From Allocoleopsis franciscana PCC 7113 (GTDB lineage: Bacteria > Cyanobacteriota > Cyanobacteriia > Cyanobacteriales > Coleofasciculaceae), in contig NC_019738.1 of the NCBI RefSeq assembly GCF_000317515.1, forward strand, positions 1,745,623 through 1,809,622: a DNA stretch of 64,000 nt, given 5' to 3'. Below are positions 1 through 63,969 of this stretch, piece after piece. Under the pieces are notes generated by a model. It did no database searches. It worked only from the letters and a program-made list of their open reading frames with translations, and had not been told where the DNA came from. Position numbers and translations under genes: made by a program. Within the stretch, counting starts at the first letter, position 1, and the number at the start of each line of letters is the position of its first letter.

Positions 1-3000
1 ATTGTGTTTGGCCCCAATGCCAGCTTGAACGTTCCAGCTTCGTTCACCGCGACTACAGCGACGGGTATTGGCCTTGATAATAATCAGTTATTCAGCGCCA
101 CCGAACCCAATAACTACGCGACCTTGGTCGGTCAACCTAGTAACTTCAACTTTGCCACATCCCAGACACCAGGGGCAGTGGTGAATATGGGTCAACTGAG
201 TGTCAGCCAGGGGAACAACTTATCTTTGGTGGGCGGTACGGTAGTCAGTACGGGTCAATTAAATGCGCCAGGAGGACAAATTAACATTACGGCTGTTCCT
301 GGTCAGAGTACAGTACTCCTGAGTGCCCCTGGGAACGTGCTCAGCCTAGAGGTTCCAGCCTCAGAAGTCTCCACGATCACTCCTAGTACCTTACCCCAGC
401 TATTGACAGGCAGCGGTCAATCTACGGGTTTGGCAGTTAATAGTTCAGGTCAGGTAGAACTGACGGGGTCGAATATTCCCATCCACAACGGAGATGTGGT
501 GATCAAAGGAAGTGTAACAGCCCAAACAGCCACGGTGTCCGCTCAAAATAATCTGATTTTAGTAGAAAGCCAGTTGCAAACAACAGGTGACTTGAATCTA
601 CTGGCGCAGAATACAGTGATGGTGAGAGATACAGCCACCAATCCTTTCCTCGCCCAGGCAGGAGGGAACCTTTATATTCAGGGTAATTACGAGATTGACA
701 TCCTGGCACTGAATACTCCATATATACCCCCCTTTCAAAGTGGTGGCAACTTGAGTTTTGTCAGTGATGGAATTATTTCTTTTGATAGTCACTCCCAGAG
801 TGGGGGGAGTATCTTGTTTCACAACTTATCAGGCGGCCCCGCCAACGTCTACAGCTATTATGACCCCATCATTACCTCCGGAGGTAATATTGCCCTAGGC
901 AACTACACAGGGGCGGCTCTCAAGGTAGATTCAGGTGGCACTATTACAGCCGGAGATATTACGATTACCCAACCGGATACTCTCTCGATTCCTACTACCG
1001 ATCCAGATTATGTGATTTTGACCACTACTCCATCGCTGATTCTGAAGGCAGCAGGGAGCATTAATGTAGGGAATATCAATACTTCGGATCAAAGTGTAGG
1101 TGATGCTGGGCATGTGAGGTTGACCGCCCAAGGTAACATTACGACCGGCGATATCAACGCCAGAGATTTGGGTGCGGGAAATGCGGGTTCTGTCTCATTG
1201 TTATCCGCTGGGGGCAACATTCAAGTTGAAAATGTCAATACAACCAACCTGAACGCAGGCAATTCCGGTTCTATAACGATGATCGGCGCTGGCACCGTTA
1301 CACACGGCGAATTGAATTGGAATAACTTTGGAACGGGAAATCAAGCAAGCAGCCCTGTAATCATGCAGAATCTAGGGGGCACCAACACTCCTCCACCAAC
1401 AGGCGGTACGACGACTCCCCCACCAGGCGGCACAACTCCCCCACCAGGCGGCACAACGACTCCTCCACCAACGGGTGGTACCACAACTCCCCCACCAGGC
1501 GGCACAACTCCCCCACCAGGCGGTACCACAACTCCAACACCAACGGGCGGTACCACGACTCCAACACCACCAGGCGGCACAACGACTCCTCCACCAACGG
1601 GTGGTACCACAACTCCCCCACCAGGCGGCACAACTCCCCCACCAGGCGGCACAACGACTCCTCCACCAACGGGTGGTACCACAACTCCCCCACCAGGCGG
1701 TACCACAACTCCAACACCACCAGGCGGTACCACAACTCCAACACCACCAGGCGGTACCACAACTCCAACACCAACAGGTGGTACCACAACTCCAACACCA
1801 ACGGGCGGTACCACAACTCCAACACCAACGGGCGGTACCACAACTCCAACACCAACGGGCGGTACCACAACTCCAACACCAACGGGCGGTACCACAACTC
1901 CAACACCAACGGGTGGTACCACAACTCCAACACCAACGGGCGGTACCACAACTCCAACACCAACAGGCGGTACCACAACTCCAACACCAACAGGCGGTAC
2001 CACAACTCCAACACCAACAGGCGGTACCACAACTCCAACACCAACAGGTGGTACAACGACTCCAACACCAACGGGCGGTACCACAACTCCAACACCAACA
2101 CCTACAGGCGGCAGTAAAACGACTCCTTCATCGGGTAGTACAACGACTACCTCCGGTGACAGTATCACTACTCCCGCCGGAGGTAGTAAAGATAATGCTT
2201 CTGGCGGAAGTACAAACAGTACTTCTAATACCTGTCTATCCTGTACGTCCACTGATAGCACTGTGACTACACCCAGTGGCATCGCAAATCATCAATCTAG
2301 TGCCACTACCAGCACGACATCCCGTAGCAGCACAGTGGCTACATCCGATGGCAGTACACCCAATTCACCCAATAGTGGTGGAGCAAATAATCCATCAGGG
2401 CAGGGGAATACTAATCATGTTCATCTGGGTGGAACCAGCGATTCGCCAACAACGAGCTCATCACCACAACAGTTAGTCGGGAACTCGTCTTCAAGTGAAG
2501 TGAAGCCTAATTTAGTGTCTTCTCTGGAAGAACCTTTGACAAATCAATTCGAGCAATATTTTGGGCACCCTGACAAGACTCCGACTGTAACTCTGGCAGA
2601 CGCTCGTAATATTCTTCGTAAAGTGGAGAAAGCAACTGGCGTCAAACCCGCACTCATTTATGCAACCTTTGTGCCTCAACGGATTGTAGCCAATGGGGTA
2701 AGCAATGTATCAACTCCAGACCAAAACTCAAACCTTGAAACTCCAAATTCTTCATACCAGTTGGAATTAGTGTTGGTGACAGGGGAGGGTGAACCGATTC
2801 GTCGTCAAGTAACTGGAGCAACGCGAGAGAACGTTCTCCAAGTGGTTTATCAATTTCAGTCTGAAGTGACGAATGCTCAAAGTGGACGTGACTACGAGGC
2901 TCCTAGTAAACAACTCTATCAATGGCTAATCGCTCCTCTGGATGCTGAGATCAAAGCACGAGGTATCCAAAATCTGTCTTTCATCATGGATAGCGGCTTG

Positions 3001-17045: not shown

Positions 17046-17378
17046 ATGAAAACAAAAAAAGCGATGAAGACCAGCGAACTTTTAAGCCGATATGCAGTGG
17101 GACAAAGAGATTTTAGGGGCGCGAATCTGATGGGGGCACAACTAAAAAAGGTCAATCTCAGTTATGCCGATTTTAGTGGTGCAGATTTGAGGGGAGCTAA
17201 CTTAACATCTGCGAATCTTAGTTATGCCAATCTTCAGGAGGCCACCCTGACTGGAGCTAATTTAACCGAAGCTAATCTAACAAAAGTCAACTTAACTCAA
17301 ACCCATATTCATGAGGCTAACTTCAGTCGTGCCAACCTGCGTGGGGCAATTATGCCTGATGGCGTGATTCAAACTTGA
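17046..17378 (+). CDS. Pentapeptide repeat protein
   Basis: Tandem A(D/N)LxG/ANL(S/T)x pentapeptides (ANLMGAQLKKVNLSYADFSGADLRGANLTSANLSYANL...). Confidence 0.75.
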   Translation: MKTKKAMKTSELLSRYAVGQRDFRGANLMGAQLKKVNLSYADFSGADLRGANLTSANLSYANLQEATLTGANLTEANLTKVNLTQTHIHEANFSRANLRGAIMPDGVIQT

Positions 17379-18597: not shown

Positions 18598-19584
18598 CAA
18601 TCAACAAACAGCCATTTCTGACACTTTTCATCCGTCAAAACCTAAGAAGTTGGTGGAGATTTAGCCATTTTCTCCACCAACTTTTGATCATCTATTTCTT
18701 AAAACCTATTGCATACAAAGTTTTTGTTGCTCCCGATGATTCCCCCTATATTCATTGGGGGAAATTTACAAAAAAAATTTATAATAGAATTCTCGGATCT
18801 GATCGAAAGTCTCGACAGAAACTTGAATAAAATAAAACAGCTAAAGTTAATCAACTCATTTCAAATCTTATTAATCCCCTATTGGTTACCACGACAAAAT
18901 CTCCCCTTGAAATAAAATATAAACCCCTAACTCCCCTGAGAGTCAGAGGTTTAATTTTATATTCATATAGCCAGCCTAAATGATTGGTGAGTGCCTCTAT
19001 TCTCTCGTCTGCGTCCTGTTGTGTCCTCTGCGGTTCATCAAAAAGGTCTGTCTCACAAATCAACGTTAGGTTTGCTATCGGGTTTTTTCAGCTAGACCCC
19101 TAAACGTCTACTACCTCAGACCGCTCTGATGGGGAGTTTAGTCCCCCTTTGGTAGTAATAAGGTGAAGGAAGCGACAAAAACTTCACACCGTTTCTAGTC
19201 AGCCGTTTATTTGCACCGTCTGTATATCTGACGTCGCTCTCCTCCGATATACAGTTATGGGCCACTGCGGTATAACTCCCAACCGGTACGATTTCTATTC
19301 GCCTACTAGACTTACAAAGATGCCAATTTGCTCTATCGCTCTACAGGCAGAAGAGCTAATAACTGGCAGTCAGCCTAGGGGGACAAACTCAATTTCACTA
19401 CTGTAAATAATGGCACAAAGTAGAATGTTCTTTTCTTACAAGATATAAAGTTTTTCCTGAGAGGCAGGAGCAAATGCAACGATACCGTAACATTTACTCC
19501 TGCCGCAGGATAGATGAACTTCTATTGCAACCTTTTTTATTCGAGCAGACAGCTAGACGGGATCAATGTGAGCTGCCTTGAAAA

Positions 19585-27980: not shown

Positions 27981-30275
27981 ATGGTAATGTCTGACGATAA
28001 GACGCCAAGCGTCTACGAACCACTGACTTCCAGAATTGACAAAGTAAAAGTCTATGCAGCAGGTGCAACGGTTACTCGTGTCGCTGACTTACAGCTAGAC
28101 GCAGGCGAAATCCCAGAACAGGTTGAAATGGCGGGATTACCGCTAGCACTGGATGATAGCAGCGTTCGGGTGCGTGTGGAATCTGCATTGGGCGCGAGTA
28201 CGGCAATTGCCACTGATGTTCGGATTGGTTTAGCGGTTCCCCCACGCCAAGCCGTACAAAATTCACCAACCGATGAGGAGGTGCGGGAAGCGAAGGCTGA
28301 GGTACAACAGCTTGAGGATGCGATCGCTTTAATTGAAAATGAAATCGCCATCCTCTATCAACTAGATGTACCAGAACGCCCCGATGGGGAAGAAGGGAAA
28401 GCTCCCCCGCCTTCGCCTCTGACGGCTAGACTCGCCTTGACGAACTTTAAGGATGAACAAGTTCGTGCCCGCATCACAGAAAAGCGCGAAACGACGGAAA
28501 AGTTACGCCAAGCGCAAGAACATCTCGACGACTTACTGCAAAAACAGGCTCGTGCTTCTAATGCTAAAGAGGTTCGCCCCCATGAGCTTCGCAAGACAGT
28601 CGTTGTTCGGTTAAGTAACGAGGGTGAACCCAGTACCCTTGCAGGGCAAAGGTTAGTTGTAGAGTATTTTGTCCCAGGCGCACGTTGGACACCGACTTAT
28701 ATTTGCCGTTTGGATAGTACGGGAAATCAGGCAACAGTAGCAGTACGAGCCTTAATTTGTCAGCGCACGGGTGAAGATTGGTCGGGAGTCAGCTTGGAAC
28801 TTTCGACGGCTGAACCCCTGTCATGGTGTGAGTTGCCCGAATTGCCCTCTCTACGGCTTGGACGCGCTCAACCCAGGTTAAAAACATCGGGCTGGCGTCT
28901 TCCTCCGGTTGGTGCTGAGATTTTGTTTGAGGATTTTGATCGGCAGAAACAGGTAGCGATTTCTGCTGTATCTGTGCACTCCGTCCTCACGGATATCCCT
29001 TCCCCAAGCGTGCCACCGTTACCCAATTTGGCTGTAGAAGTTCTGAAACATCAGGGAATTGACGCCACACAAGTCCCAAAAAAAATGAGTCAGTCACCCT
29101 TGGACACACAAGAAATCTTTGAGAGAAGTCAGGAACTCCGCAAAGCTTCCTTTTCCCAGCAGAGGAGACGGCAGCGAGTCGAGTTAACAACCGATGAACC
29201 TTCTGCACCACGGGATGAATTTGATATCACCTTGATGTCTCCAGGCATGATCGACGCAGGCGAGTATAGCGGATACGCTGAAAGTATGCCTGCGGCAGCT
29301 CCGGCTGTATTTCGATCCCCTTCTAGACCCAAGACAGCCGCATTCCACGAGTCTCGACAAGCACAAGTGAGGGAAGAGGAAGACGCTTTAACCAATCTCC
29401 TCGCCTATAGCTTAATGCGGATGGGAGCCGCCGATGAACCAACCCAACGCGGTAAGTTGTCGATTGAGCAACGGCAAGAAGTCTATTTAGAAATCCTCAA
29501 ACGCCGGAACGTCGTTGTTAGTTTCAATGTACTCACAATAGTGCAACAGGCTGCAATTGATGCACGCAATTGCATTTATATCAATCTACCTCCCGGTGGA
29601 ATTAATGTGCGACAGGTTGCAGGTTCCTTTGACTATGCCTACAGCGCTGATGGACGTATCGATGTCCCTTCCGATGGTGAATTTCATTCTGTCGCTCTAA
29701 CGAGTAACTCGACAGATGTGGATTTGCGCTATGTGGTGGTACCCCGCGAGGATACCAATGTCTTCCGCATTGCTCAACTCAAGAACCCCTTACAAGCTCC
29801 CCTACTAGCTGGCCCTGCGGATGTGTATGTGGATGGCGAGTATATCTTATCGACTAAGATTACTACAGTGCCACCCAAGGGACAAATGGAGTTAGGTCTA
29901 GGGGTTGAGCAAGCCATCAAAGTAGCCCGGAACACGAGTTATCAGGAAGTTCGTTCCGGTGAAACCCTTGTTGCTTTTAACGAACTGCGCCACAACATTC
30001 AAATTGATATTGCCAACCGTTTACCCAGAGACGCGGCAATTGAGGTACGGGAACGAATTCCCATCCCTGACGCAGATGCCAAGGTTGATGTGCAAATTGA
30101 TCGCGCCTCACCGGAGTGGGAGAAATATGAACAACAAGAACGCGGCATACCGATTCGCGGAGGTTACCGTTGGCGAGTACAAGTGCCAGGGGGAGAGCAA
30201 ACAAAGCTATCAGTACAGTACACAATTAAAACGTTTGTGGATAGTGAGCTAATCGGGGGAAATCGACGGGAATAA
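27981..30275 (+). CDS. DUF4140/DUF4139 (TIGR02231, MuiA-like) family protein carrying a long disordered Pro/Ser/Arg-rich central insertion
   Basis: N-terminal domain (VYAAGATVTRVADLQLDAG...VRV), the conserved central block EYFVPGARWTPTYICRL...CQRTGEDWSGVSLELSTAEP and the C-terminal DUF4139-type beta-rich domain. It is a paralogue of the 31010-32596 product. Confidence 0.6.
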   Translation: MVMSDDKTPSVYEPLTSRIDKVKVYAAGATVTRVADLQLDAGEIPEQVEMAGLPLALDDSSVRVRVESALGASTAIATDVRIGLAVPPRQAVQNSPTDEEVREAKAEVQQLEDAIALIENEIAILYQLDVPERPDGEEGKAPPPSPLTARLALTNFKDEQVRARITEKRETTEKLRQAQEHLDDLLQKQARASNAKEVRPHELRKTVVVRLSNEGEPSTLAGQRLVVEYFVPGARWTPTYICRLDSTGNQATVAVRALICQRTGEDWSGVSLELSTAEPLSWCELPELPSLRLGRAQPRLKTSGWRLPPVGAEILFEDFDRQKQVAISAVSVHSVLTDIPSPSVPPLPNLAVEVLKHQGIDATQVPKKMSQSPLDTQEIFERSQELRKASFSQQRRRQRVELTTDEPSAPRDEFDITLMSPGMIDAGEYSGYAESMPAAAPAVFRSPSRPKTAAFHESRQAQVREEEDALTNLLAYSLMRMGAADEPTQRGKLSIEQRQEVYLEILKRRNVVVSFNVLTIVQQAAIDARNCIYINLPPGGINVRQVAGSFDYAYSADGRIDVPSDGEFHSVALTSNSTDVDLRYVVVPREDTNVFRIAQLKNPLQAPLLAGPADVYVDGEYILSTKITTVPPKGQMELGLGVEQAIKVARNTSYQEVRSGETLVAFNELRHNIQIDIANRLPRDAAIEVRERIPIPDADAKVDVQIDRASPEWEKYEQQERGIPIRGGYRWRVQVPGGEQTKLSVQYTIKTFVDSELIGGNRRE

Positions 30276-30345
30276 CAGAGACTTTCCCCAAATACTTGAC
30301 CGAATGTGTTGAACAAAAATCGAGCATCTACTAGGGACATTCGCT

Positions 30346-30990
30346 ATGCAGTCGGAACACCTACAACAAATCATGGATTATTACATTGAGGATGCTCAAA
30401 ACCATCTTGCTATCATTGAGCAGCATTTGTTGAAGTTGCAAAGTACGATTGAAGACCCAGAAATTGTGAGTGAGTTATTCCGCGCTGCACGTTGCGGAAT
30501 TGTTGGCGGAGCTAACTTGCTACCCATCAGTAGCTTTTATATCAACAGCATTCATAAAACGGGCTTTTGCTTAGTCGATTGTTTAAAAGTCATTCAGCAA
30601 CAGGGTTCGATCAAGATTGACCAAAAGCTAAAAGACCTATTAATGCAGGTATTTTACCGCCTCAAATCATTAATTGAACAATTGCGACAACCTTCTAACT
30701 TAAAGGATGATCAGGCTAAGCAAGTAATATCAGAAATTGAGCCAATTCGAGCAGCACTAATAGCACACCTTCATGGATTAAGCCATCAATCAGGAGGTAT
30801 GAATCGGCAAGAAATCGCCCTAACGAAGTGCTGTAATGTTAGCGACATGACCTTACAAGAGTCAGCACATATCGCATCCGAATTGGACGATGACATTCCC
30901 TCCCTAGAAGAGTTGGAATCACTCTTTGATGAACTCTTCCTCGATAGTTCTTGCGCTAATGTAGCCCCCATCAGTCAGGACGAACTGTAA
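30346..30990 (+). CDS. Hypothetical all-helical protein with a degenerate HPt-like segment (ELFRAARCGIVGGANLL)
   Basis: 214 aa between the two DUF4139 paralogues with 19-bp spacing to the next gene. The segment resembles the HPt/CheA-P1 block LFRAAHTIKGSAGM, but the phospho-accepting His is replaced by Arg. Confidence 0.45.
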   Translation: MQSEHLQQIMDYYIEDAQNHLAIIEQHLLKLQSTIEDPEIVSELFRAARCGIVGGANLLPISSFYINSIHKTGFCLVDCLKVIQQQGSIKIDQKLKDLLMQVFYRLKSLIEQLRQPSNLKDDQAKQVISEIEPIRAALIAHLHGLSHQSGGMNRQEIALTKCCNVSDMTLQESAHIASELDDDIPSLEELESLFDELFLDSSCANVAPISQDEL

Positions 30991-31009
30991 TCCAGAGGAA
31001 ACAATATTA

Positions 31010-32596
31010 ATGATGCAAGCCATTGGGCAATCGCCAAACACCATTCAACAACTCACTCTCGATGCACCTGTAGCTACAGTCACGCTCCTAGAAGACCGTG
31101 CCTTAGTGCGGCGAGTGGGTCAAGTTAACCTAACACAAGGATTATGGCGAATTAAAGTCGAGAACGTTGCGCCCGTACTTTCTGATAAATCCCTACGTGC
31201 CGAGTTTACTGGAGACTATTCAGGGGCAAGAATAGACGATGTTCGCGTTCGCCGCCAGATGCGGGTGTTGGAAGAGGAACGATCCGAAGAAATTAAAGGC
31301 TTGCTGGCAGAATTGCGATCGCTGCAAAACACCTTCAACCATCTTACCGAAGACCGCCAACATCAAGAGTATTCCTTTGAGCAAGTCGGCACCATCTTGG
31401 CGCATAGTTTGCAGGAACTCCCCATCGATGCCGTTTGGGGACAACTCGACCCGAAATCCTGGCGCGACCAATTTCAAACCCTATTTAAGCAGTTGCGCGA
31501 ACTGCGTACCGAAATTTTAAACGGTTATCACAATCAGGAAAAGTTAAGGGAGCTCCTTAATGACTTAGGCACCCGAATCCGCGCCCTGTCCAGCCCTGAA
31601 CTACTCTACACTGCCCACATCGAAGCCGATTTAATGGTGAATCAAGCAGGAGAGTATGCCATTGCTTTCGACTACGTGGTTCCTAATGCCATGTGGCGAC
31701 CGTGGCACCAAGCCCGTTTGCTGTTAGAAGAAAAGCCCTCTCTCTCCTTTCGCGTCGATGGTTGTGTATGGCAACGCACTGGCGAAGATTGGAAGAATGT
31801 GGATTTAGTCTTTTCCACTGCCCGTGCTTCCCTGGGCACCGAACCCCCCTTACTTGCCGATGACCCGTTAAATGTGCGGGAAAAATCCAAACAAATCATC
31901 ATTGAAACCCGCGACCAAAAAATTCAAACCACTGGACTCGGTGCAGGTGCAACACCGGGTACTGTTGAGCTACCGGGTGTGGATGACGGCGGTGAAGTCC
32001 GCAACCTACGACCCGCCAGTAAAGCGACGATTCCCTCTGATGGTCGTCCCTACCGTGTTCCCATCTTCTCCTTCTCCTCAGAAGCGGAGGTGGAGTATGT
32101 TTTGATGCCAGAACTGTCTTGTCAGGTTGTCCTTAAAAGCGAGCAGACCAATACCGCCCAATTCCCCATTCTGGCAGGGCCAGTGGATTTAGTGCGCTCA
32201 TCCGAGTTTGTCGGCAAGACATCGGTCGGATTTATTGCACCCGGAGAGAAGTTTGCCTTGGGATGGGGGCCAGATGGGGCAATGCGTGTGCAACGCACTA
32301 CAACCCAGAAAAGAAAACAAGACCATCTCACCAAGTGGAATACCGTCACAACCACGATTGAGTTATTTATCTCGAATATTGGAGCAGAGTCAAGGACGAT
32401 TAAAACCACAGAACGCGTACCCGTTTCAGAGTTGGAACAGGTGAAGGTAGAAGTGATTGCCCAAAAAACGACAGACGGCGTCCAACCAGATGAGAATGGC
32501 TTCTGTACGTGGCATTTCACCCTAGAACCCTACTCTCAACTTCAGGTTACTTTAGTCTATAAAGTCTCAGCCGCACCAGAGGTTCAAGGCTTCTAA
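31010..32596 (+). CDS. DUF4140/DUF4139 (TIGR02231, MuiA-like) family protein, canonical length
   Basis: Shares the conserved block DYVVPNAMWRPWHQARL...WQRTGEDWKNVDLVFSTARA with the 27981-30275 product. Coiled-coil middle section. Confidence 0.65.
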   Translation: MMQAIGQSPNTIQQLTLDAPVATVTLLEDRALVRRVGQVNLTQGLWRIKVENVAPVLSDKSLRAEFTGDYSGARIDDVRVRRQMRVLEEERSEEIKGLLAELRSLQNTFNHLTEDRQHQEYSFEQVGTILAHSLQELPIDAVWGQLDPKSWRDQFQTLFKQLRELRTEILNGYHNQEKLRELLNDLGTRIRALSSPELLYTAHIEADLMVNQAGEYAIAFDYVVPNAMWRPWHQARLLLEEKPSLSFRVDGCVWQRTGEDWKNVDLVFSTARASLGTEPPLLADDPLNVREKSKQIIIETRDQKIQTTGLGAGATPGTVELPGVDDGGEVRNLRPASKATIPSDGRPYRVPIFSFSSEAEVEYVLMPELSCQVVLKSEQTNTAQFPILAGPVDLVRSSEFVGKTSVGFIAPGEKFALGWGPDGAMRVQRTTTQKRKQDHLTKWNTVTTTIELFISNIGAESRTIKTTERVPVSELEQVKVEVIAQKTTDGVQPDENGFCTWHFTLEPYSQLQVTLVYKVSAAPEVQGF

Positions 32597-32610: not shown

Positions 32611-32693
32611 GTAGTGCAAGAAGGCAGAAGGCAGGAGGCAAAAGCAGGAGGTAAGAAAGCTTGTACAGTAAGCTTTTTCACCTTTTTCAACTG
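32611..32693. repeat. Copy A of a dispersed intergenic repeat of about 75-80 bp (gtagtgcaagaaggcag...gtacagtaagctttttcacctttttcaactgg)
   Basis: The reverse complement of 59337-59406 matches at about 90 percent over the ends, with an 11-bp internal indel. Confidence 0.8.
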
Positions 32694-32969
32694 GATAATT
32701 ATTTGCGCCACCCTGTACTAGTGATCGAAATCACACGCTCTGGCAGTATCCCGTCACCGGGCTGAATTATTTGCCGTCACAAAAAAATAGCGTTAATTTC
32801 ACGAGTTGCTATAGGATGCCATCACTGTTGGAGGCGGAGGTTCGTGAGAACTTGAAATTGTTAAGTACAACACAGTCCTCGCAGAGACAGTGAACGTGTA
32901 CATCCTTGCTTACAGGTCTTAGAGCTTCCTTAATCTATTCCCTCTAACGCAAAGGATCGCAGACTGACT

Positions 32970-41668: not shown

Positions 41669-42538
41669 ATGACAAATCAAAAGCATATTGAATTACTTGC
41701 TCAAGGAGTAAATGTATGGAATGCTTGGATGGAAAAAAATCACCATTTAATACCTAATCTCCGAGAAGCCAACCTGAGGGAAGCTCACCTCCGATATGTC
41801 AATTTGTGTACAGCGGATTTATCCGAAGCAGATTTGTTTAATGCTAAGCTCAGCGGTGCCGACCTGACGGGAGCGAACCTCACTAGAGCGAACCTCTTTT
41901 TAGTCGATTTCTCAACAGCCGACCTCACGAGAGTTGATCTCACTGGAGCGAACCTCACTAGAGCGAACCTGTTTTTCACCAATCTCACGGGAGCTAATTT
42001 GACGGGAGCTAATTTGACGGGAGCTAACCTCAAAGAAGCCAATTTTAGCAATGCCGGCCTCTGTCGTGCTGACCTTAGTGGTGCTAATCTCAATAGAGCT
42101 GACCTCAGTAAAGCCGACCTAAGAAATATCAACCTGAGTGGTGCTGACCTGAGTGGTGCTAACCTTGGTAAAGCCAACCTGAGTGGTGCTAACCTCTGCG
42201 CGGCTAACCTCAGTGGTGCCAACCTCTGCGCGGCTAACCTGAGTGGTACTAACCTCTGCGCTGCTAACTTCAAAAGAGCTAACCTTAGTGGTGCCAGTTT
42301 GAGCAATACTCATGCGTTGGGTACGAACTTTGAACAGGCAAGACTCACGGGTGTTGAGCTAGAAGATTGGAGTATTAACTCTGACTCCAATTTTGATGGT
42401 GTGATTTGTGACTATGTTTATTTGAAGGCGCAGCATCAAGATCGTCTCCCTATGAGTAGAAAATTTGTCCCAGGAGAGTTCATCAGTTTATTTTCCCGAC
42501 AAATGAACTACCCGAATCTATATTCCAAAGGCGCATAA
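41669..42538 (+). CDS. Pentapeptide repeat protein
   Basis: About 35 consecutive A(D/N)L(S/T)GA-type pentapeptides. The minus-strand ORF 41785-42306 is its mirror-image artefact. Confidence 0.85.
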   Translation: MTNQKHIELLAQGVNVWNAWMEKNHHLIPNLREANLREAHLRYVNLCTADLSEADLFNAKLSGADLTGANLTRANLFLVDFSTADLTRVDLTGANLTRANLFFTNLTGANLTGANLTGANLKEANFSNAGLCRADLSGANLNRADLSKADLRNINLSGADLSGANLGKANLSGANLCAANLSGANLCAANLSGTNLCAANFKRANLSGASLSNTHALGTNFEQARLTGVELEDWSINSDSNFDGVICDYVYLKAQHQDRLPMSRKFVPGEFISLFSRQMNYPNLYSKGA

Positions 42539-58304: not shown

Positions 58305-59258
58305 TTAGCAATTAGAGAGCGTTTCTAACGCTAACAAGCCAGCCCCATAGGCAGGTTCGTAACGAGGAGAAACTATCTTTACCCCAGGCTTGTGGGTGAC
58401 AAAAGCTGCTTCAAATTGCTCACGCATTAAAGAAAAACCCTGCCATACACTTCCTGTTGTCACCACTTCAACAATGTCGGAAGGGCTAAAAAGGCTATCA
58501 ACAACTACTTGTGTAGCTTTGACTAATTCTTTAACAGCCTCTTCAATAATACCAAGGGCAACCGCGTCTCCTGAGGTCGCTTCTTGAGCCACAATCGGTG
58601 CTAACGCCGCTATGTCTTTAACACTCCACCCTGGCTGATAGATGACATTGACTAACTCTTCTAAACTCGATAAACCGAGATGCTGTTTAAATCGCTCTTG
58701 AAGAGTGGTGGCAGCATCGCATCCATCATAAGCTTTCAGTGCCGATCGCAAACCCGAAATAGCAAGATGATAAGCGCCGCCAGCGTCTCCTAAAAGATGC
58801 CCCCAGCCTCCTACTCGCTTGGTACATCCGGTTGAATTTCGCCCAAAAATAATGGAACCGGTGCCTGCGATCGCAACTACTCCGACACAATGACCCAGTC
58901 CTCCCACTAAGGCAATCAACGCATCGTTCCCAATTACAATCGTTGAGGGTCGCAAAGCCCAAGTGATAGGAAGTGAGTCGCTCAACTGTAACTGTTGTAC
59001 GAAAGTCTCAACGACTTGGATATCGGCGGGGCGATCGACACCGGCTACTCCCAAACAAATGGCTTCAACTGGGACAGCCTGGAAGCTAGCCGTTGCCTGA
59101 GTAATAGCCGATTCAATGGAACACAAAGCCGCTGACTTACCGACACTCTGATAATTAGACGCACCCGCTTCACCCCGTCCCAGCACTTGACCGGTATCGT
59201 TCATGAGGACACAAACTGTTTTGGTTCCTCCCCCATCAATGCCTAACACCAAGCTCAT
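58305..59258 (-). CDS. BadF/BadG/BcrA/BcrD-type ATPase (N-acetylglucosamine kinase-like)
   Basis: LVLGIDGGGTKTVCVL (phosphate-1) and AGTGSI (phosphate-2) motifs of the ASKHA sugar-kinase fold. 317 aa. Confidence 0.75.
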   Translation of the reverse strand: MSLVLGIDGGGTKTVCVLMNDTGQVLGRGEAGASNYQSVGKSAALCSIESAITQATASFQAVPVEAICLGVAGVDRPADIQVVETFVQQLQLSDSLPITWALRPSTIVIGNDALIALVGGLGHCVGVVAIAGTGSIIFGRNSTGCTKRVGGWGHLLGDAGGAYHLAISGLRSALKAYDGCDAATTLQERFKQHLGLSSLEELVNVIYQPGWSVKDIAALAPIVAQEATSGDAVALGIIEEAVKELVKATQVVVDSLFSPSDIVEVVTTGSVWQGFSLMREQFEAAFVTHKPGVKIVSPRYEPAYGAGLLALETLSNC

Positions 59259-59336
59259 GGGACTTTACCCCTTTTACCCAGATTCTCCACCCTCAAGTGT
59301 CACACAAACTAGTGCAGCGTGGCAGAAATAACTATC

Positions 59337-59406
59337 CAGTTGAAAAAGGTTAAAAAGCTTACTGTACAAACTTTCTTGCCTTCTGCCTCCTGCCTTCTTG
59401 CACTAG
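59337..59406. repeat. Copy B of the dispersed repeat of about 75 bp, opposite orientation to copy A, flanked by 11-bp inverted repeats aaactagtgca / tgcactagttt (59307-59317 and 59399-59409)
   Basis: The reverse complement aligns to 32611-32693. It lies in the divergent promoter region between the sugar kinase and the lipoprotein gene. Confidence 0.8.
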
Positions 59407-59596
59407 TTTATGGAAATGGGGAACCCTTATAGTTTTTTCGGGAGTCTATCTATCTATCTTGAGTAGAGGACGCTCTGCGTCTTTACCTGAAAGCCAAGCT
59501 GACATAGGCTATTGCTAGCATAGAAACAGGCAAGGACAAATCTACAGAGAACGCATACAGCAAGGATTTGTTTAAGACAAAAAATTTTGGAGAGAC

Positions 59597-61790: not shown

Positions 61791-63573
61791 CCCACATTCC
61801 GCCCTTTGACTGTCACAAGTAGATAATTTAGTGGAGGCAATCGAGGCAAACGCAACGTAAGTGGAGTTAAAGATAGCCTAGCCAGCTTTTTGGCCGAAAC
61901 AGGATAATTGAACGGGAGTGGAAGGGCTAAGTCTTGGGGAGGGGGTGTGAAAGCAGCAGAAATGCAGGTAATGAACCTCGACCACTTGGGTCTGGTGGCA
62001 GGTATTATTGACGAAATCGGGCTGGTGGAACAAATAGACCTGCGGTTGGGGCAAGACAGCCGAGGAAAAGTCAGTGCAGGTCTTGTGGTCAAAGCAATGA
62101 TTCTCAACGGACTGGGCTTTGTGTCAGCCCCACTGTACTTATTTAGTCGATTTTTTGAAGGGAAAGCTACAGAACACCTGATTGGAACCGGAGTCAAGCC
62201 AGAACATCTCAATGATGACCGCCTGGGACGAGTGCTTGATGAACTGTTCCTGGCAGGACTAACCCGTTGCTTCGTCAGCATTGCCATGAAAGCTATCGCC
62301 AAGTTTGGAGTGAGTATTGAGACAGCGCACTTAGACTCGACCTCATTTCATCTGCATGGCGAGTATGAAACAGCCAATGACGAAGTGGTAGTCACTCAAA
62401 AGACAGAAGATGGCACAAGAGTAGAAATTGAGGTAGCGCCGAAAGCGATTCACCTAACGTATGGATATTCTCGTGACCATAGAAGTGACCTCAAACAATT
62501 CGTGATGAATCTGATATGTGGTGGAGAGGGTGGTATACCGTTATTTTTAGAGATGGCAGATGGCAATCAAGACGACAAGACAAAGTTTGCCCATCTGTTT
62601 GAGGAGTTTCAGAAACAGTGGACTTTTGAGGGAATACACATAGCAGATAGTGCTTTGTACACTGCCGACAACCTCAAGCGGATGAAGCAGTTGAAATATC
62701 ACACCCTAGAAGCAGTAGAAATCATTGAGCAAGACCATTACTCCCAACCGGGAAGACCAGCAAAGCAAACTCGACCCACTCACAAAACCTATCACATTCA
62801 AGCCACATTGGTAGTCAATGAAACTGTCCTAGAACAACAAAGACAGCAAGCGGGACGATTCATTCTCGCCACCAATGTCCTAGACAAGGAACAATTGAAT
62901 AATGATGCAGTCCTGAGTGAGTACAAAGAGCAGCAGAGTACGGAACGGGGCTTTAGCTTTCTCAAAGACCCTCTGTTTTTTGCTGATAGTGTTTTCCTGA
63001 AAGACCCAGGTCGCATTGCTGCTGTAGGGATGGTTATGGGATTGTGTCTGTTGGTCTACAACTTGGGACAGGCAGCTTTACGTCAAGCCTTAGTTCAAGC
63101 TGATGAAAGCCTCCCTAATCAATTAAAAAAGCCGACTCAGCGTCCCACCCTCCGCTGGATATTTCAGTGTTTCCAAGCGGTGCATTTGTTAGTGATTGAT
63201 GGGGTTGAGCAAATTGCCAATCTTACCGATGAACGCTTAAAGATTTTGCGCTTTTTCTCTCAAGCTTGCCGGGACTACTATCTATTGTGCTGAGTTCTTC
63301 AAGTCATTGAAATACTTCAACAATTATTTCAGCAAAGTGATGCGTAGACGAGCTTTTTAGTTAACGCATCAGGCTTTTCCTGATAGGAAACAGTTCACTT
63401 TATGTTGCCAGTTACTTGACTTTTTATTGCTACTTGCTGCTTTTTGAGAACAAGCACCCGAAAAAAGTTAGCATCTCTCATCTCTAGAACGTTTCACTCG
63501 ATTGAACTGGCCTGTGTTAGCCTTCAGTTCCACACAATTATCCGCTTGTGACAGTCAAAGGGCGGAATGTGGG
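61791..63573 (+). mobile_element. Intact IS1634-like (IS4 superfamily) insertion sequence with 29-bp perfect terminal inverted repeats and 6-bp TTAAAG target-site duplication
   Basis: Left IR cccacattccgccctttgactgtcacaag (61791-61819); right IR cttgtgacagtcaaagggcggaatgtggg (63545-63573). ttaaag directly flanks both ends (61785-61790 and 63574-63579). A single transposase ORF lies inside. Confidence 0.8.
61908..63293 (+). CDS. IS1634/IS4-family DDE transposase
   Basis: 461 aa. N-terminal MNLDHLGLVAGIIDEIGLVEQIDLRL is typical of IS1634-family transposases. It sits between the terminal inverted repeats. Confidence 0.8.
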   Translation: MNGSGRAKSWGGGVKAAEMQVMNLDHLGLVAGIIDEIGLVEQIDLRLGQDSRGKVSAGLVVKAMILNGLGFVSAPLYLFSRFFEGKATEHLIGTGVKPEHLNDDRLGRVLDELFLAGLTRCFVSIAMKAIAKFGVSIETAHLDSTSFHLHGEYETANDEVVVTQKTEDGTRVEIEVAPKAIHLTYGYSRDHRSDLKQFVMNLICGGEGGIPLFLEMADGNQDDKTKFAHLFEEFQKQWTFEGIHIADSALYTADNLKRMKQLKYHTLEAVEIIEQDHYSQPGRPAKQTRPTHKTYHIQATLVVNETVLEQQRQQAGRFILATNVLDKEQLNNDAVLSEYKEQQSTERGFSFLKDPLFFADSVFLKDPGRIAAVGMVMGLCLLVYNLGQAALRQALVQADESLPNQLKKPTQRPTLRWIFQCFQAVHLLVIDGVEQIANLTDERLKILRFFSQACRDYYLLC

Positions 63574-63969
63574 TTAAAGGGTATCTGGGTCGATATTCAA
63601 CTCCCGTAGTTTCGCGGCTAATCGCTCAGCCCGTTGTGTTTCCTGTTCAGCCCGTTGTGTTTCCTGTTCAGCTCGTTGTGTTTCCTGTTCAGCTCGTTGT
63701 GTTGCCTGTTCAGCCCGTTGTATTTCTTGTTCGGCTACTTCTTCCGGTGTGGGAACTAGCTCACCTTCTGCGGTGAAAAAGCGTAATTGTCTTTGATGAA
63801 TTCCCAAATATAACTGTAGTTGTTGACTCCACAACAATCCTTGAGAATTAGGTTCTAGCGATTGGTATTCACCATCTAATAAATGGAATCCCTCAAATTC
63901 TAAGCTGTCCGGGTCAAACCAAAAGTAATCCGGTGTGCGAAATGTATCTTGATATATTTGCTTTTTCAA
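63574..63969 (-). CDS. C-terminal part of an Uma2-family-like protein with (QRAEQET)n repeats; probably 5'-partial because the N-terminus runs off the window
   Basis: RTPDYFWFDPDSLEFEGFHLLDGEYQSLEPN aligns with RIPYYGIYIVSHGTLEMYHLVNTSYERMTPN of the 56651-57478 product, and both end in L(G/N)IDxxxL. The stop codon lies inside the IS target duplication. Confidence 0.5.
   Translation of the reverse strand: MKKQIYQDTFRTPDYFWFDPDSLEFEGFHLLDGEYQSLEPNSQGLLWSQQLQLYLGIHQRQLRFFTAEGELVPTPEEVAEQEIQRAEQATQRAEQETQRAEQETQRAEQETQRAERLAAKLRELNIDPDTL

What the first reader, a model, noticed from the sequence alone, without database searches (positions are those of the whole stretch)
32611..32693. Dispersed repeat of about 75 bp present twice in opposite orientation (second copy 59337-59406), MITE- or sRNA-like
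The two copies are about 90 percent identical (gtagtgcaagaaggcag...gtacagtaagcttttt(c/a)acctttttcaactgg). One lies just downstream of the DUF4139 operon and the other sits in a divergent promoter region. Copy B is bracketed by an 11-bp inverted repeat (aaactagtgca / tgcactagttt). These are the features of a miniature mobile element or a conserved structured sRNA or terminator module, and the CT/AG-rich core could fold.
Basis: seen in the sequence. Interest (0 to 1): 0.5.

Follow-up and report, generated by a model that had tools for sequence, protein, structure and literature searches.

The report
Small mobile repeat (MITE) in cyanobacteria
The two repeats are copies of a roughly 100-base non-coding mobile element (a MITE) that inserted recently at CTAG sites in this cyanobacterial genome and is widespread in cyanobacteria, so it is real but of an ordinary kind.

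Summary
The repeat is real but longer than reported. Copy A is 32611-32721 (+, 111 nt) and copy B is 59309-59406 (-, 98 nt). They are 90% identical and differ by one 13-nt indel in a (GGCAGRA)n tract. Each copy has TGCA...TGCA ends flanked by CTAG; in copy A the left CTAG reads GTAG.

Close relatives, whose flanking proteins are 90-94% identical, have the same intergenic regions without the element. Three of the five empty sites hold a single CTAG exactly at the insertion point. Both copies are therefore recent insertions with a CTAG (or TA) target duplication.

An 18-mer from the core found about 75 further copies in Nostocales, Coleofasciculaceae, Leptolyngbyaceae/Stenomitos, Chroococcales and Pleurocapsales genomes. 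These copies have sharp CTAG boundaries, and two have CTNAG direct repeats. 52 of 53 are intergenic, with no orientation bias.

The element can fold into a long hairpin, but there is no covariation, no Rfam match and no promoter-like or terminator-like site.

Verdict: a non-autonomous MITE carrying an internal heptamer minisatellite. No transposase partner was found and no name for the family turned up in the searchable literature. Interest is low to moderate.

The parts
32611..32721 (+). MITE copy A including both flanking 4-mers (111 nt)
   Evidence: Alignment with copy B. nhmmer E=1e-31. The element is absent from the orthologous intergenic region of L127 and L128.
32611..32614 (+). Left target-site copy of A, now GTAG (one change from CTAG)
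   Evidence: The empty sites in L127 and L128 have a single CTAG here.
32615..32717 (+). Body of copy A (103 nt), TGCAAG...CCTGTA, with 5'-TG...(C/T)A-3' ends
32623..32651 (+). Heptamer minisatellite (GGCAGRA)n inside copy A. It holds the 13-nt length difference from copy B.
   Evidence: The tract varies from about 2 to 6 units across the family.
32653..32678 (+). Central AT-rich hairpin AAGAAAGCTTG-TACAG-TAAGCTTTTT
   Evidence: Folds. No covariation was found. It does not meet the terminator scan criteria.
32718..32721 (+). Right target-site copy of A (CTAG)
59309..59406 (-). MITE copy B including both CTAG copies (98 nt)
   Evidence: nhmmer E=4e-30. The element is absent from the orthologous region in L131, L132 and L134. 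The short-read contig L126 ends inside it.
59313..59402 (-). Body of copy B (90 nt)
59309..59312 (.). CTAG target duplication of copy B (right end of the element)
   Evidence: L132 has AAA-CTAG-TTT once at this point.
59403..59406 (.). CTAG target duplication of copy B (left end of the element)
31010..32596 (+). Context: DUF4140/DUF4139 gene. Copy A starts 15 nt after its stop codon.
58305..59258 (-). Context: BadF/BadG/BcrA/BcrD-type ATPase gene. Copy B lies about 50 nt upstream of its start codon.

Best explanation
[quoted passage not shown] The body is about 90-105 nt and non-coding. It starts with TGCAAGAAGGCAG and ends with GCCAYGCTGCA, an imperfect terminal inverted repeat TGCAnnnnGGCnGAA with TG...CA tips. 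Internally it carries a variable (GGCAGRA)n heptamer minisatellite, a central AT-rich hairpin, and a conserved right arm, TTTTTCAACTGGATAGTTATTTCYGCC.

Shown: the element inserts at CTAG, and one CTAG is found on each side afterwards. This is either a 4-bp duplication, or a TA duplication with G/C belonging to the ends. Both window copies arose after this lineage split from relatives that are 90-94% identical in the flanking proteins. The same family occurs in many copies in several cyanobacterial orders.

Inferred: the element is moved in trans by a DDE-type transposase encoded elsewhere, which recognises the short terminal repeats. Its hairpin potential follows from its palindromic build and is not a selected RNA structure. 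Any effect on neighbouring genes is incidental. Copy A lies in the 3' region of a DUF4139 gene, and copy B lies about 50 nt upstream of a BadF-type ATPase gene.
For: Empty versus filled sites for copy A: L127 and L128 read ...GC|CTAG|TGATCG... where the window reads ...GT|GTAG|[103-nt body]|CTAG|TGATCG. The flanks are otherwise collinear.

Empty versus filled sites for copy B: L132 has AAA|CTAG|TTT. L131 and L134 (a Stenomitos MAG) also lack the element.

Family: 46 full-length copies of 91-201 nt were extracted. Most have sharp CTAG...CTAG boundaries next to unrelated flanks.

Direct repeats that cannot be explained as TIR: L046 has CTGAG on both sides and L072 has CTTAG on both sides.

Tandem copies share one CTAG.

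52 of 53 copies are intergenic, with no orientation bias: the upstream gene runs the same way in 21 and the opposite way in 23, and the downstream gene in 26 and 20.

A short-read contig breaks inside copy B, as expected for a multi-copy repeat.

Old orthologous copies in seven Nostoc MAGs show that copies are also inherited vertically and decay, mainly in the heptamer half.
Against: No autonomous parent element with these ends was found. None of about 75 right ends in the fetched loci belongs to a full-length IS. The only IS in the window, at 61791-63573, has unrelated ends. Trans-mobilisation is therefore inferred, not shown.

The exact size of the duplication cannot be fixed, because CTAG is palindromic: it could be 4-bp CTAG or 2-bp TA.

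Several host genomes are MAGs from one soil data set, so part of the taxonomic breadth could reflect binning error. Cultured strains in the Nostocales (Halotia UHCC 0503) and Coleofasciculaceae (LEGE 07092) do carry a full-length copy. Nostoc minutum NIES-26, Scytonema HK-05 and Plectonema radiosum NIES-515 carry only the conserved right-hand part, and Heteroscytonema crispum UTEX LB 1556, which has full-length copies, is recorded as a MAG.
Confidence: 0.88

Rival explanations
1. The element is a gene for, or module of, a conserved structured small RNA. The repeat is kept because the transcript folds into the long hairpin.
For: Copy B folds much better than shuffled sequence on both strands (z = -4.7 and -2.9). 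Some stem positions show G-U type variation. The sequence is conserved across orders.
Against: Copy A folds no better than shuffles (z = -0.6 and -0.9). RNAalifold keeps only the terminal stem, and its covariation term is +0.13. An explicit 35-pair model has a covariation score of 0.082 against a shuffled mean of 0.089, with 480 of 500 shuffles at least as high. There is no Rfam match at either threshold. The element is absent from close relatives at both loci. Orientation is random relative to neighbouring genes.
Confidence: 0.04
2. The element is an exapted transcription terminator, an mRNA 3'-end hairpin, or a portable promoter that regulates the adjacent genes.
For: Copy A lies 15 nt after a stop codon, in the orientation where the central hairpin is followed by T-runs. 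Several family members abut stop codons, with the TAG of CTAG serving as the stop. Other bacterial MITEs are known to have such side effects (reviewed in PMC10969869 and PMC3184786).
Against: The consensus scans find no terminator-like or promoter-like site in either copy region. The central stem has only 2 G-C pairs. Orientation relative to upstream or downstream genes is unbiased across 53 copies. Both window insertions are recent and absent in relatives with the same genes. Abutting stop codons is expected anyway from a CTAG target.
Confidence: 0.1
3. The element is a REP/REPIN-type or IS200/IS605-type palindromic element. It would be moved as single-stranded DNA by a tyrosine (Y1/RAYT) transposase, with no true target duplication.
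For: The whole element is an imperfect palindrome that can form one long hairpin. Copy A begins with GTAG, which resembles the GTAG tag of REPs (PMC3733652). REPINs have been reported in Nostoc punctiforme (PMC3116915).
Against: The family consensus end is CTAG, not GTAG, and GTAG in copy A is a single variant. The two arms are not inverted copies of one 20-40-nt REP unit: one is a heptamer tract and the other is unique sequence. Two copies are flanked by direct repeats that differ from the consensus in the same way on both sides, CTGAG/CTGAG and CTTAG/CTTAG. That pattern indicates staggered-cut duplication. No RAYT or TnpA gene was seen next to any copy, although this was not searched systematically.
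Confidence: 0.04
4. The repeat is a simple local segmental duplication within this genome, with no mobility.
For: Only two copies are present in the 64-kb window.
Against: About 75 copies were found in dozens of other cyanobacterial genomes, next to unrelated flanks. Relatives have precise empty sites. Similarity stops exactly at CTAG on both sides.
Confidence: 0.01

Closest known systems
Bacterial MITEs in general (for example Correia/NEMIS of Neisseria, ERIC, RUP, MaeMITEs of Microcystis)
   Same: The element is small (about 100 nt) and non-coding. It has terminal inverted repeats and a short target duplication. It is multi-copy, mostly intergenic, able to form a hairpin, and shows filled/empty polymorphism between close relatives.
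   Different: No parent IS has been identified. The inverted symmetry is weak beyond the first 8-15 nt or so. It carries an internal heptamer minisatellite and a right arm that is conserved across cyanobacterial orders.
Nezha MITE of Anabaena variabilis / Nostoc PCC 7120 (Zhou et al. 2008, as summarised in PMC3184786)
   Same: Both are cyanobacterial MITEs whose recent mobility was shown by empty and filled orthologous sites.
   Different: Nezha is about 130-170 bp and shares its TIR and direct repeats with ISNpu3 (PMC3184786). From my memory of the Nezha abstract, it prefers A+T-rich targets. This element is 98-112 nt with a CTAG target. No hit was found on PCC 7120 plasmids in PLSDB.
P. gingivalis MITE containing a minisatellite (PMC4596501)
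   Same: Both are MITEs whose length varies through an internal tandem repeat.
   Different: The sequences and host phyla are unrelated. Here the repeat unit is 7 nt and also acts as a hot spot for nested insertions.
IS630/Tc1-mariner-derived MITEs (TA duplication; from my memory of Tenzen et al. 1990, IS630 itself prefers CTAG), and IS5-family ISL2/IS1031 groups (TA/TNA) or IS481-type elements (TG...CA ends, NCTAGN target)
   Same: The target is CTAG, with TA or CTAG found on both sides. The CTNAG (= TNA) variants fit IS5-type duplications. The TG...CA tips fit IS3/IS481-type ends. The TA duplication of the IS630 family is documented in PMC2170065.
   Different: None of these links was tested against a real transposase. 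Strict TA duplication does not explain the CTGAG and CTTAG repeats. A 6-bp NCTAGN duplication is not seen, because the bases outside CTAG differ between the two sides. The ends of the IS701 family (---YACT, 4-bp duplication; PMC2266710) do not match.
Small dispersed repeats (SDR) of Nostoc punctiforme (Elhai et al. 2008; cited in PMC3116915)
   Same: Both belong to the world of very small mobile repeats in filamentous cyanobacteria. The 20-35-nt inserts nested in the heptamer tract of some copies may be of that kind.
   Different: As I recall, SDRs are 21-27 nt, whereas this element is about 100 nt with TIR and TSD. The paper could not be read here, so identity with anything described there is untested.

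Membership tests
MITE (miniature inverted-repeat transposable element) | Small size (tens to a few hundred bp) with no coding capacity | tested here: met
   Copies are 98 and 111 nt, and the family mode is 98-113 nt. No ORF of 60 aa or more overlaps either copy.
MITE (miniature inverted-repeat transposable element) | Terminal inverted repeats | tested here: met
   The ends are TGCA...TGCA, or (CTAG)TGCA/TGCA(CTAG), extending imperfectly as TGCAnnnnGGCnGAA. The terminal stem is 94% paired across 27 copies.
MITE (miniature inverted-repeat transposable element) | Target-site duplication flanking the element | tested here: met
   Three of the five empty sites (L127, L128 for copy A; L132 for copy B) hold one CTAG; L131 and L134 read ATGAG/ATGAA there. 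Filled sites hold two. CTGAG and CTTAG direct repeats occur in L046 and L072.
MITE (miniature inverted-repeat transposable element) | Multiple dispersed copies | tested here: met
   There are two copies in 64 kb. An assembly breaks inside copy B. The copy number in the source genome was not measured.
MITE (miniature inverted-repeat transposable element) | Presence/absence polymorphism at orthologous sites (evidence of mobility) | tested here: met
   Copy A is absent in L127 and L128. Copy B is absent in L131, L132 and L134.
MITE (miniature inverted-repeat transposable element) | A related autonomous IS with the same ends that encodes the transposase | tested here: inconclusive
   None was found among about 0.9 Mb of fetched loci, the window, or the PLSDB plasmids. 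Whole genomes and ISfinder could not be searched.
Nezha MITE | Length about 130-170 bp, with TIR/DR shared with ISNpu3 | tested here: not met
   The length is 98-113 nt. The Nezha figures come from PMC3184786. A direct sequence comparison was not possible.
REP / REPIN (RAYT-mobilised) | 20-40-bp palindromic units tagged by GTAG or CGTC, arranged as inverted doublets, with no target duplication | tested here: not met
   The consensus end is CTAG. The arms are not two copies of one REP unit. Direct repeats CTNAG flank two copies. The definition is from PMC3733652 and PMC3116915.
Any Rfam RNA family | Score at or above the family's gathering threshold | tested here: not met
   There was no hit on the element at the gathering threshold. 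The only hit at E up to 10 was CRISPR-DR65, at 16.7 bits against a threshold of 43.
Conserved structured RNA (generic) | Compensatory base changes that maintain helices | tested here: not met
   Covariation equals the shuffled control: 2 pairs have double changes against a shuffled mean of 2.5. The RNAalifold covariation term is +0.13.
Intrinsic terminator | G+C-rich stem-loop followed by a T-run | tested here: not met
   No site was found in either region on either strand. The central stem has 2 G-C pairs.
IS481-type element derivative | TG...CA ends with a 6-bp NCTAGN duplication (from memory for IS481) | tested here: inconclusive
   The TG...CA tips and the CTAG core are present. The bases outside CTAG are not duplicated. 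No rve-type transposase was linked to the element.
IS630/Tc1-mariner-derived MITE | Strict TA target duplication (PMC2170065) | tested here: inconclusive
   Most copies are compatible with C-TA-G, and L035 with T-TA-A. The L046 and L072 flanks imply a 3- or 5-bp duplication.

The most novel reading that the evidence does not exclude
This MITE family has kept an almost unchanged 60-nt right arm across several cyanobacterial orders, and no parent IS is detectable. It might therefore not be a mere parasite. It could be maintained or moved by a host-encoded or domesticated CTAG-specific transposase, or its hairpin with multiple AGGAGG (Shine-Dalgarno-like) heptamers could have a host function, for example in mRNA stability or in sequestering ribosomes or the anti-SD sequence. 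Its heptamer tract also appears to be a preferred landing site for even smaller mobile repeats, which would give a three-level nesting of mobile DNA.
Probability: 0.08. Interest if true: 0.55.

Novelty: new member of a known kind. Interest (0 to 1): 0.27.

Why it matters
For annotating this window, the result settles three things. The two repeats are insertions, not genes. The '11-bp inverted repeat' is insertion anatomy. Copy B has recently been placed about 50 nt upstream of a BadF-type ATPase gene and could alter its expression relative to sister strains.

More broadly, the family is a convenient marker of recent transposition and of strain-level differences in filamentous cyanobacteria, because relatives provide filled and empty sites. 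It is also a cause of assembly breaks. Its CTAG specificity gives a concrete handle for finding the transposase that moves it. It does not change what is known about MITE biology, and MITEs are already known to be abundant in cyanobacteria (PMC11602168).

Tried and rejected
Rfam at the gathering and E-value thresholds found nothing on the element.

Promoter and terminator consensus scans found nothing.

The consensus RNA structure and an explicit 35-pair model showed no covariation.

The search for a parent IS failed by every route tried:
- No left and right ends 0.4-4 kb apart enclosed a transposase. The L094 and L095 pairs are two separate copies around ordinary genes such as an NlpC/P60-like gene.
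- The 'solo' right ends in L034, L085, L071, L049 and L116 are 5'-truncated copies next to asparagine-synthase-like, NRPS/monooxygenase-like and NTPase-like genes (gene labels are my reading of the translations, not tool results).
- An all-against-all BLAST of the loci found no shared IS-sized repeat, only orthologous Nostoc loci.
- BLAST against PLSDB plasmids gave only six partial, diverged MITE-like hits.

An IMG/VR viral scan gave 0 hits.

Full-text searches for the sequence itself gave 0 relevant papers. Searches on MITE/CTAG/cyanobacteria and on STRR/heptanucleotide found no description of this family. Elhai et al. 2008 (PMC2527708) could not be opened.

The window's own IS (61791-63573, DUF4277 + DDE) was considered as the partner and rejected, because its ends are unrelated.

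The metagenome scan was not used. No pattern could separate a rare parent IS from the far more numerous MITE copies.

Full report
**Observation**

Reading the two places and aligning them shows that the repeat is real.

- Copy A runs from 32611 to 32721 on the + strand: GTAG-TGCAAG...CCTGTA-CTAG, 111 nt.
- Copy B runs from 59309 to 59406 on the - strand: CTAG-TGCAAG...GCTGCA-CTAG, 98 nt.
- They agree at 89 of 99 aligned positions (90%).
- They differ by one 13-nt gap inside a purine-rich tract of GGCAGRA heptamers.
- The 35-nt core occurs twice, against 0 expected in shuffled sequence.
- A profile built from 35 family members finds these two copies and nothing else in the window.
- Copy A begins 15 nt after the stop codon of a DUF4140/DUF4139 gene.
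- Copy B lies between a BadF/BadG-type ATPase gene (-) and a DUF6263 gene (+).

**Family**

A BLAST of copy B against plasmids gave partial hits in Nostoc, Brasilonema and Calothrix plasmids.

I then made one exact-pattern scan of the species-representative genome collection with the 18-mer TTTTTCAACTGGATARTT. About 75 of the loci are cyanobacterial and carry the same element. The rest are chance matches in unrelated bacteria, with no similarity outside the 18-mer.

The hosts include the following:
- Nostocales: Halotia UHCC 0503 and Heteroscytonema crispum UTEX LB 1556 with full-length copies; Nostoc minutum NIES-26, Scytonema HK-05, Plectonema radiosum NIES-515 and many Nostoc MAGs, most with only the conserved right-hand part detected.
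- Coleofasciculaceae: Coleofasciculus LEGE 07092 and S288, Allocoleopsis, Symplocastrum.
- Leptolyngbyaceae/Stenomitos, Chroococcales and Waterburya MAGs.

Several of these MAGs come from one soil data set. The breadth is therefore best regarded as secure for Nostocales and Coleofasciculaceae and probable for the others.

Forty-six full-length copies could be delimited. They are 91-201 nt long, with modes at 98 and 112-113 nt. Their consensus is CTAG TGCAAGAAGGCAG (RAGGCAG)n AAGAAAGCTTGTACAGTAAGCTTTTTAACCTTTTTCAACTGGATAGTTATTTCYGCCAYGCTGCA CTAG. Similarity to the flanks stops exactly at the outer CTAGs.

**Mobility**

This is the decisive evidence. I fetched contigs that encode close homologues of the flanking proteins.

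Copy A. Two assemblies have a DUF4139 protein 94% identical to the window's (P0001, P0002). They carry the same intergenic region, collinear on both sides. The only difference is that a single CTAG stands where the window has GTAG + 103-nt body + CTAG.

Copy B. Three assemblies have a BadF-type protein 90-92% identical to the window's. One of them is the Stenomitos sp. MAG GCA_036704025.1. All three lack the element. One of them reads AAA-CTAG-TTT at the exact point of insertion.

It is the palindromic target AAACTAGTTT split by the insertion, plus the element's TGCA ends.

An assembly with the identical DUF4139 protein (L125) has the filled site. A short-read contig ends inside copy B, which is how assemblers behave at multi-copy repeats.

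The nearest named relative of the window's proteins is 'Stenomitos sp.' at 90% identity. The source is therefore a Leptolyngbyaceae-like filamentous cyanobacterium. HIP1 (GCGATCGC) sites and pentapeptide-repeat genes fit this.

**Target duplication**

CTAG is palindromic. The family consensus alone therefore cannot say whether CTAG is duplicated target or part of the inverted repeat.

- Three of the five empty sites (L127, L128, L132) show that one CTAG pre-exists; L131 and L134 have ATGAG/ATGAA at that point.
- Two copies have variant flanks that match as direct repeats: CTGAG on both sides in L046 and CTTAG on both sides in L072. Inverted-repeat symmetry cannot produce this. It points to a staggered cut with duplication.
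- Tandem copies share one CTAG.
- L035 has TTAG...CTAA. This fits a TA duplication inside a TTAA target better than a 4-bp duplication.
- Overall, the data allow CTAG/CTNAG with TGCA...TGCA ends, or TA/TNA with GTGCA...TGCAC ends.
- A 6-bp NCTAGN duplication is excluded, because the bases outside CTAG differ between the two sides.

**What it is not**

Not a known RNA. Rfam finds nothing on the element.

Not a selected RNA structure.
- Copy B folds into one long hairpin well below shuffled controls (z = -4.7), but copy A does not (z = -0.6).
- Across 27 copies, RNAalifold retains only the terminal stem, with a covariation term of +0.13.
- I also wrote out a full 35-pair hairpin model: terminal stem, GGCAGRA/TYYCTGCC, AGAAGG/CCTTTT, central hairpin and side hairpin.
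- Under that model 87.5% of cells are paired, which equals the shuffled control at 87.6%.
- The covariation score is 0.082 against a shuffled mean of 0.089, and 480 of 500 shuffles are at least as high.
- The pairing potential therefore belongs to the consensus sequence and is not maintained by compensatory change.

Not a promoter or terminator. The consensus scans find nothing in either region.

Not a directional module. Of 53 copies, 52 are intergenic. Orientation relative to the nearest long ORFs is random: the upstream gene runs the same way in 21 and the opposite way in 23, and the downstream gene in 26 and 20. A terminator or promoter module would be expected to be oriented.

Many copies abut stop codons. 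This follows from the target, since CTAG contains TAG.

**Internal anatomy and decay**

The heptamer tract varies from about two to six units.

In other genomes the tract contains nested inserts of 10-35 nt, for example:
- GCAGCTATGCTG
- GGCAGTTCGCGCAGCGTTCTCCGCAGGAGTAGGC
- GGCAGCACTTCGACACGCTCAGTGACCAG
- GGCTTTTATGAAAG

Seven Nostoc MAG loci turned out to be one orthologous locus. There an old copy sits on the TAG stop codon of the upstream gene. In that copy:
- The left, heptamer half has been remodelled by large insertions and deletions, including GGGACTG-type heptamers.
- The right half is about as conserved as the surrounding intergenic DNA.
- This conservation is partly due to ascertainment, because the loci were picked by an exact 18-mer.

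Copies are thus both spread by insertion and inherited vertically.

**Mechanism and partner**

The anatomy consists of short imperfect terminal repeats, TG...CA tips, a 2-5-bp duplication at a CTAG/TA target, and no coding capacity. This is the anatomy of a non-autonomous element moved in trans by a DDE transposase. That step is an inference.

I could not find the partner:
- None of about 75 right ends in the loci belongs to a full-length IS.
- The five right ends without a left end are truncated copies beside ordinary genes.
- No IS-sized repeat is shared among loci of the same genome.
- The window's own IS, at 61791-63573, has 45-nt TIRs and a DUF4277 + DDE_Tnp_1 transposase, and its ends are unrelated.

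Candidate families rest on established knowledge and were not tested here:
- IS630/Tc1-mariner: TA duplication (PMC2170065). From memory, IS630 itself prefers CTAG.
- IS5-family groups with TA/TNA duplications (from memory).
- IS481-type elements with TG...CA ends and a CTAG-containing target (from memory).
- IS701 makes exactly 4-bp duplications, but its published end consensus (---YACT) does not match (PMC2266710).

**Comparison with what is known**

MITEs are known to be very abundant in Nostocales and Oscillatoriales (PMC11602168).

Named cyanobacterial MITEs include Nezha, at 130-170 bp with ISNpu3-type ends (PMC3184786), and the MaeMITEs of Microcystis. The present element differs from Nezha in size and, as far as I recall, in target. 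A direct sequence comparison was not possible.

No paper in the searchable library contains any of ten diagnostic 12-16-mers from the element. The paper most likely to mention related repeats, Elhai et al. 2008 on small dispersed repeats, could not be opened.

I therefore file the element as a new, or at least unnamed, member of a known kind, and not as a new kind.

**Verdict**

The MITE interpretation is supported by direct filled/empty-site evidence for both copies. The sRNA and terminator interpretations have no support. The finding is useful for annotation and as a strain marker. It is mildly interesting for three reasons: its cross-order conservation, its CTAG specificity and its internal minisatellite that attracts nested inserts. 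It remains an ordinary class of feature, and I score interest at 0.27.

Noticed in passing
window 61791-63573: A probable complete insertion sequence. It has 45-nt terminal inverted repeats (91% complementary) around a 461-aa ORF (61908-63293, +) with DUF4277 and DDE_Tnp_1 domains, an IS4/IS1634-like architecture. Its ends are unrelated to the MITE.
   Followed up: partly
window 19213-19289 (-): A full-length match to the Rfam family CyVA-1 RNA (RF02965): 81.8 bits against a gathering score of 41.4.
   Followed up: no
window 59407-59596: The part of the BadF/DUF6263 divergent intergenic region not occupied by the MITE is almost invariant in relatives whose flanking proteins are only 90-93% identical (alignment A5). 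It may be a conserved non-coding element or a 5' leader of the DUF6263 gene.
   Followed up: no
window 1374-2190: A long array of 24/27-nt tandem repeats (CCACCAACAGGCGGTACCACAACTCCAAC-like), apparently coding a Pro/Thr/Gly-rich repeat region.
   Followed up: no
window 41750-42310 and 17150-17265: 15-nt periodic repeats typical of genes for pentapeptide-repeat proteins.
   Followed up: no
window 63605-63757: Six tandem copies of a 21-nt unit (TCAGCCCGTTGTGTTTCCTGT), just outside the right end of the IS.
   Followed up: no
L047, L053, L057, L061, L088, L093, L108 (Nostoc MAGs), around the 18-mer match: These seven loci are one orthologous locus. An old copy of the element sits on the TAG stop codon of the upstream gene (...IQNGH*) in all of them. 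Its left, heptamer half is remodelled by large insertions and deletions, including GGGACTG-type heptamer repeats. Its right half is conserved about as well as the flanks.
   Followed up: partly
L022 5621-5781; L084; L096; L103; L097; L105; L117; L095; L119 (element copies): Small inserts of 10-35 nt are nested in the heptamer tract, and the same few sequences recur: GGCAGTTCGCG.AGCGTTCTCC..GAGTAGGC; GGCAGCACTTCGACACGCTCAGTGACCAG; GGCAGTGGTTCGACA.GCTCACCAATCGGG; GCAGCTATGCTG; GGCTTTTATGAAAG. They may be even smaller mobile repeats that target the tract.
   Followed up: no
L018 4413-4626; L079 2038-2240; L083 1687-1910: Tandem pairs of elements share a single CTAG. The partner copies belong to variant subfamilies in which the TTTTTCAACTGGATAGTT segment is replaced, for example by TTTTGGGTGGATT or GTTTTGGACGGGTGAGTT. 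The family is therefore broader than the seed used here.
   Followed up: partly
window 27981-32596: Two paralogous DUF4140/DUF4139 (MuiA-like, TIGR02231) genes, of 764 and 528 aa, lie in tandem with a 214-aa ORF of no known family between them. The arrangement is conserved in relatives (L125, L127, L128).
   Followed up: no
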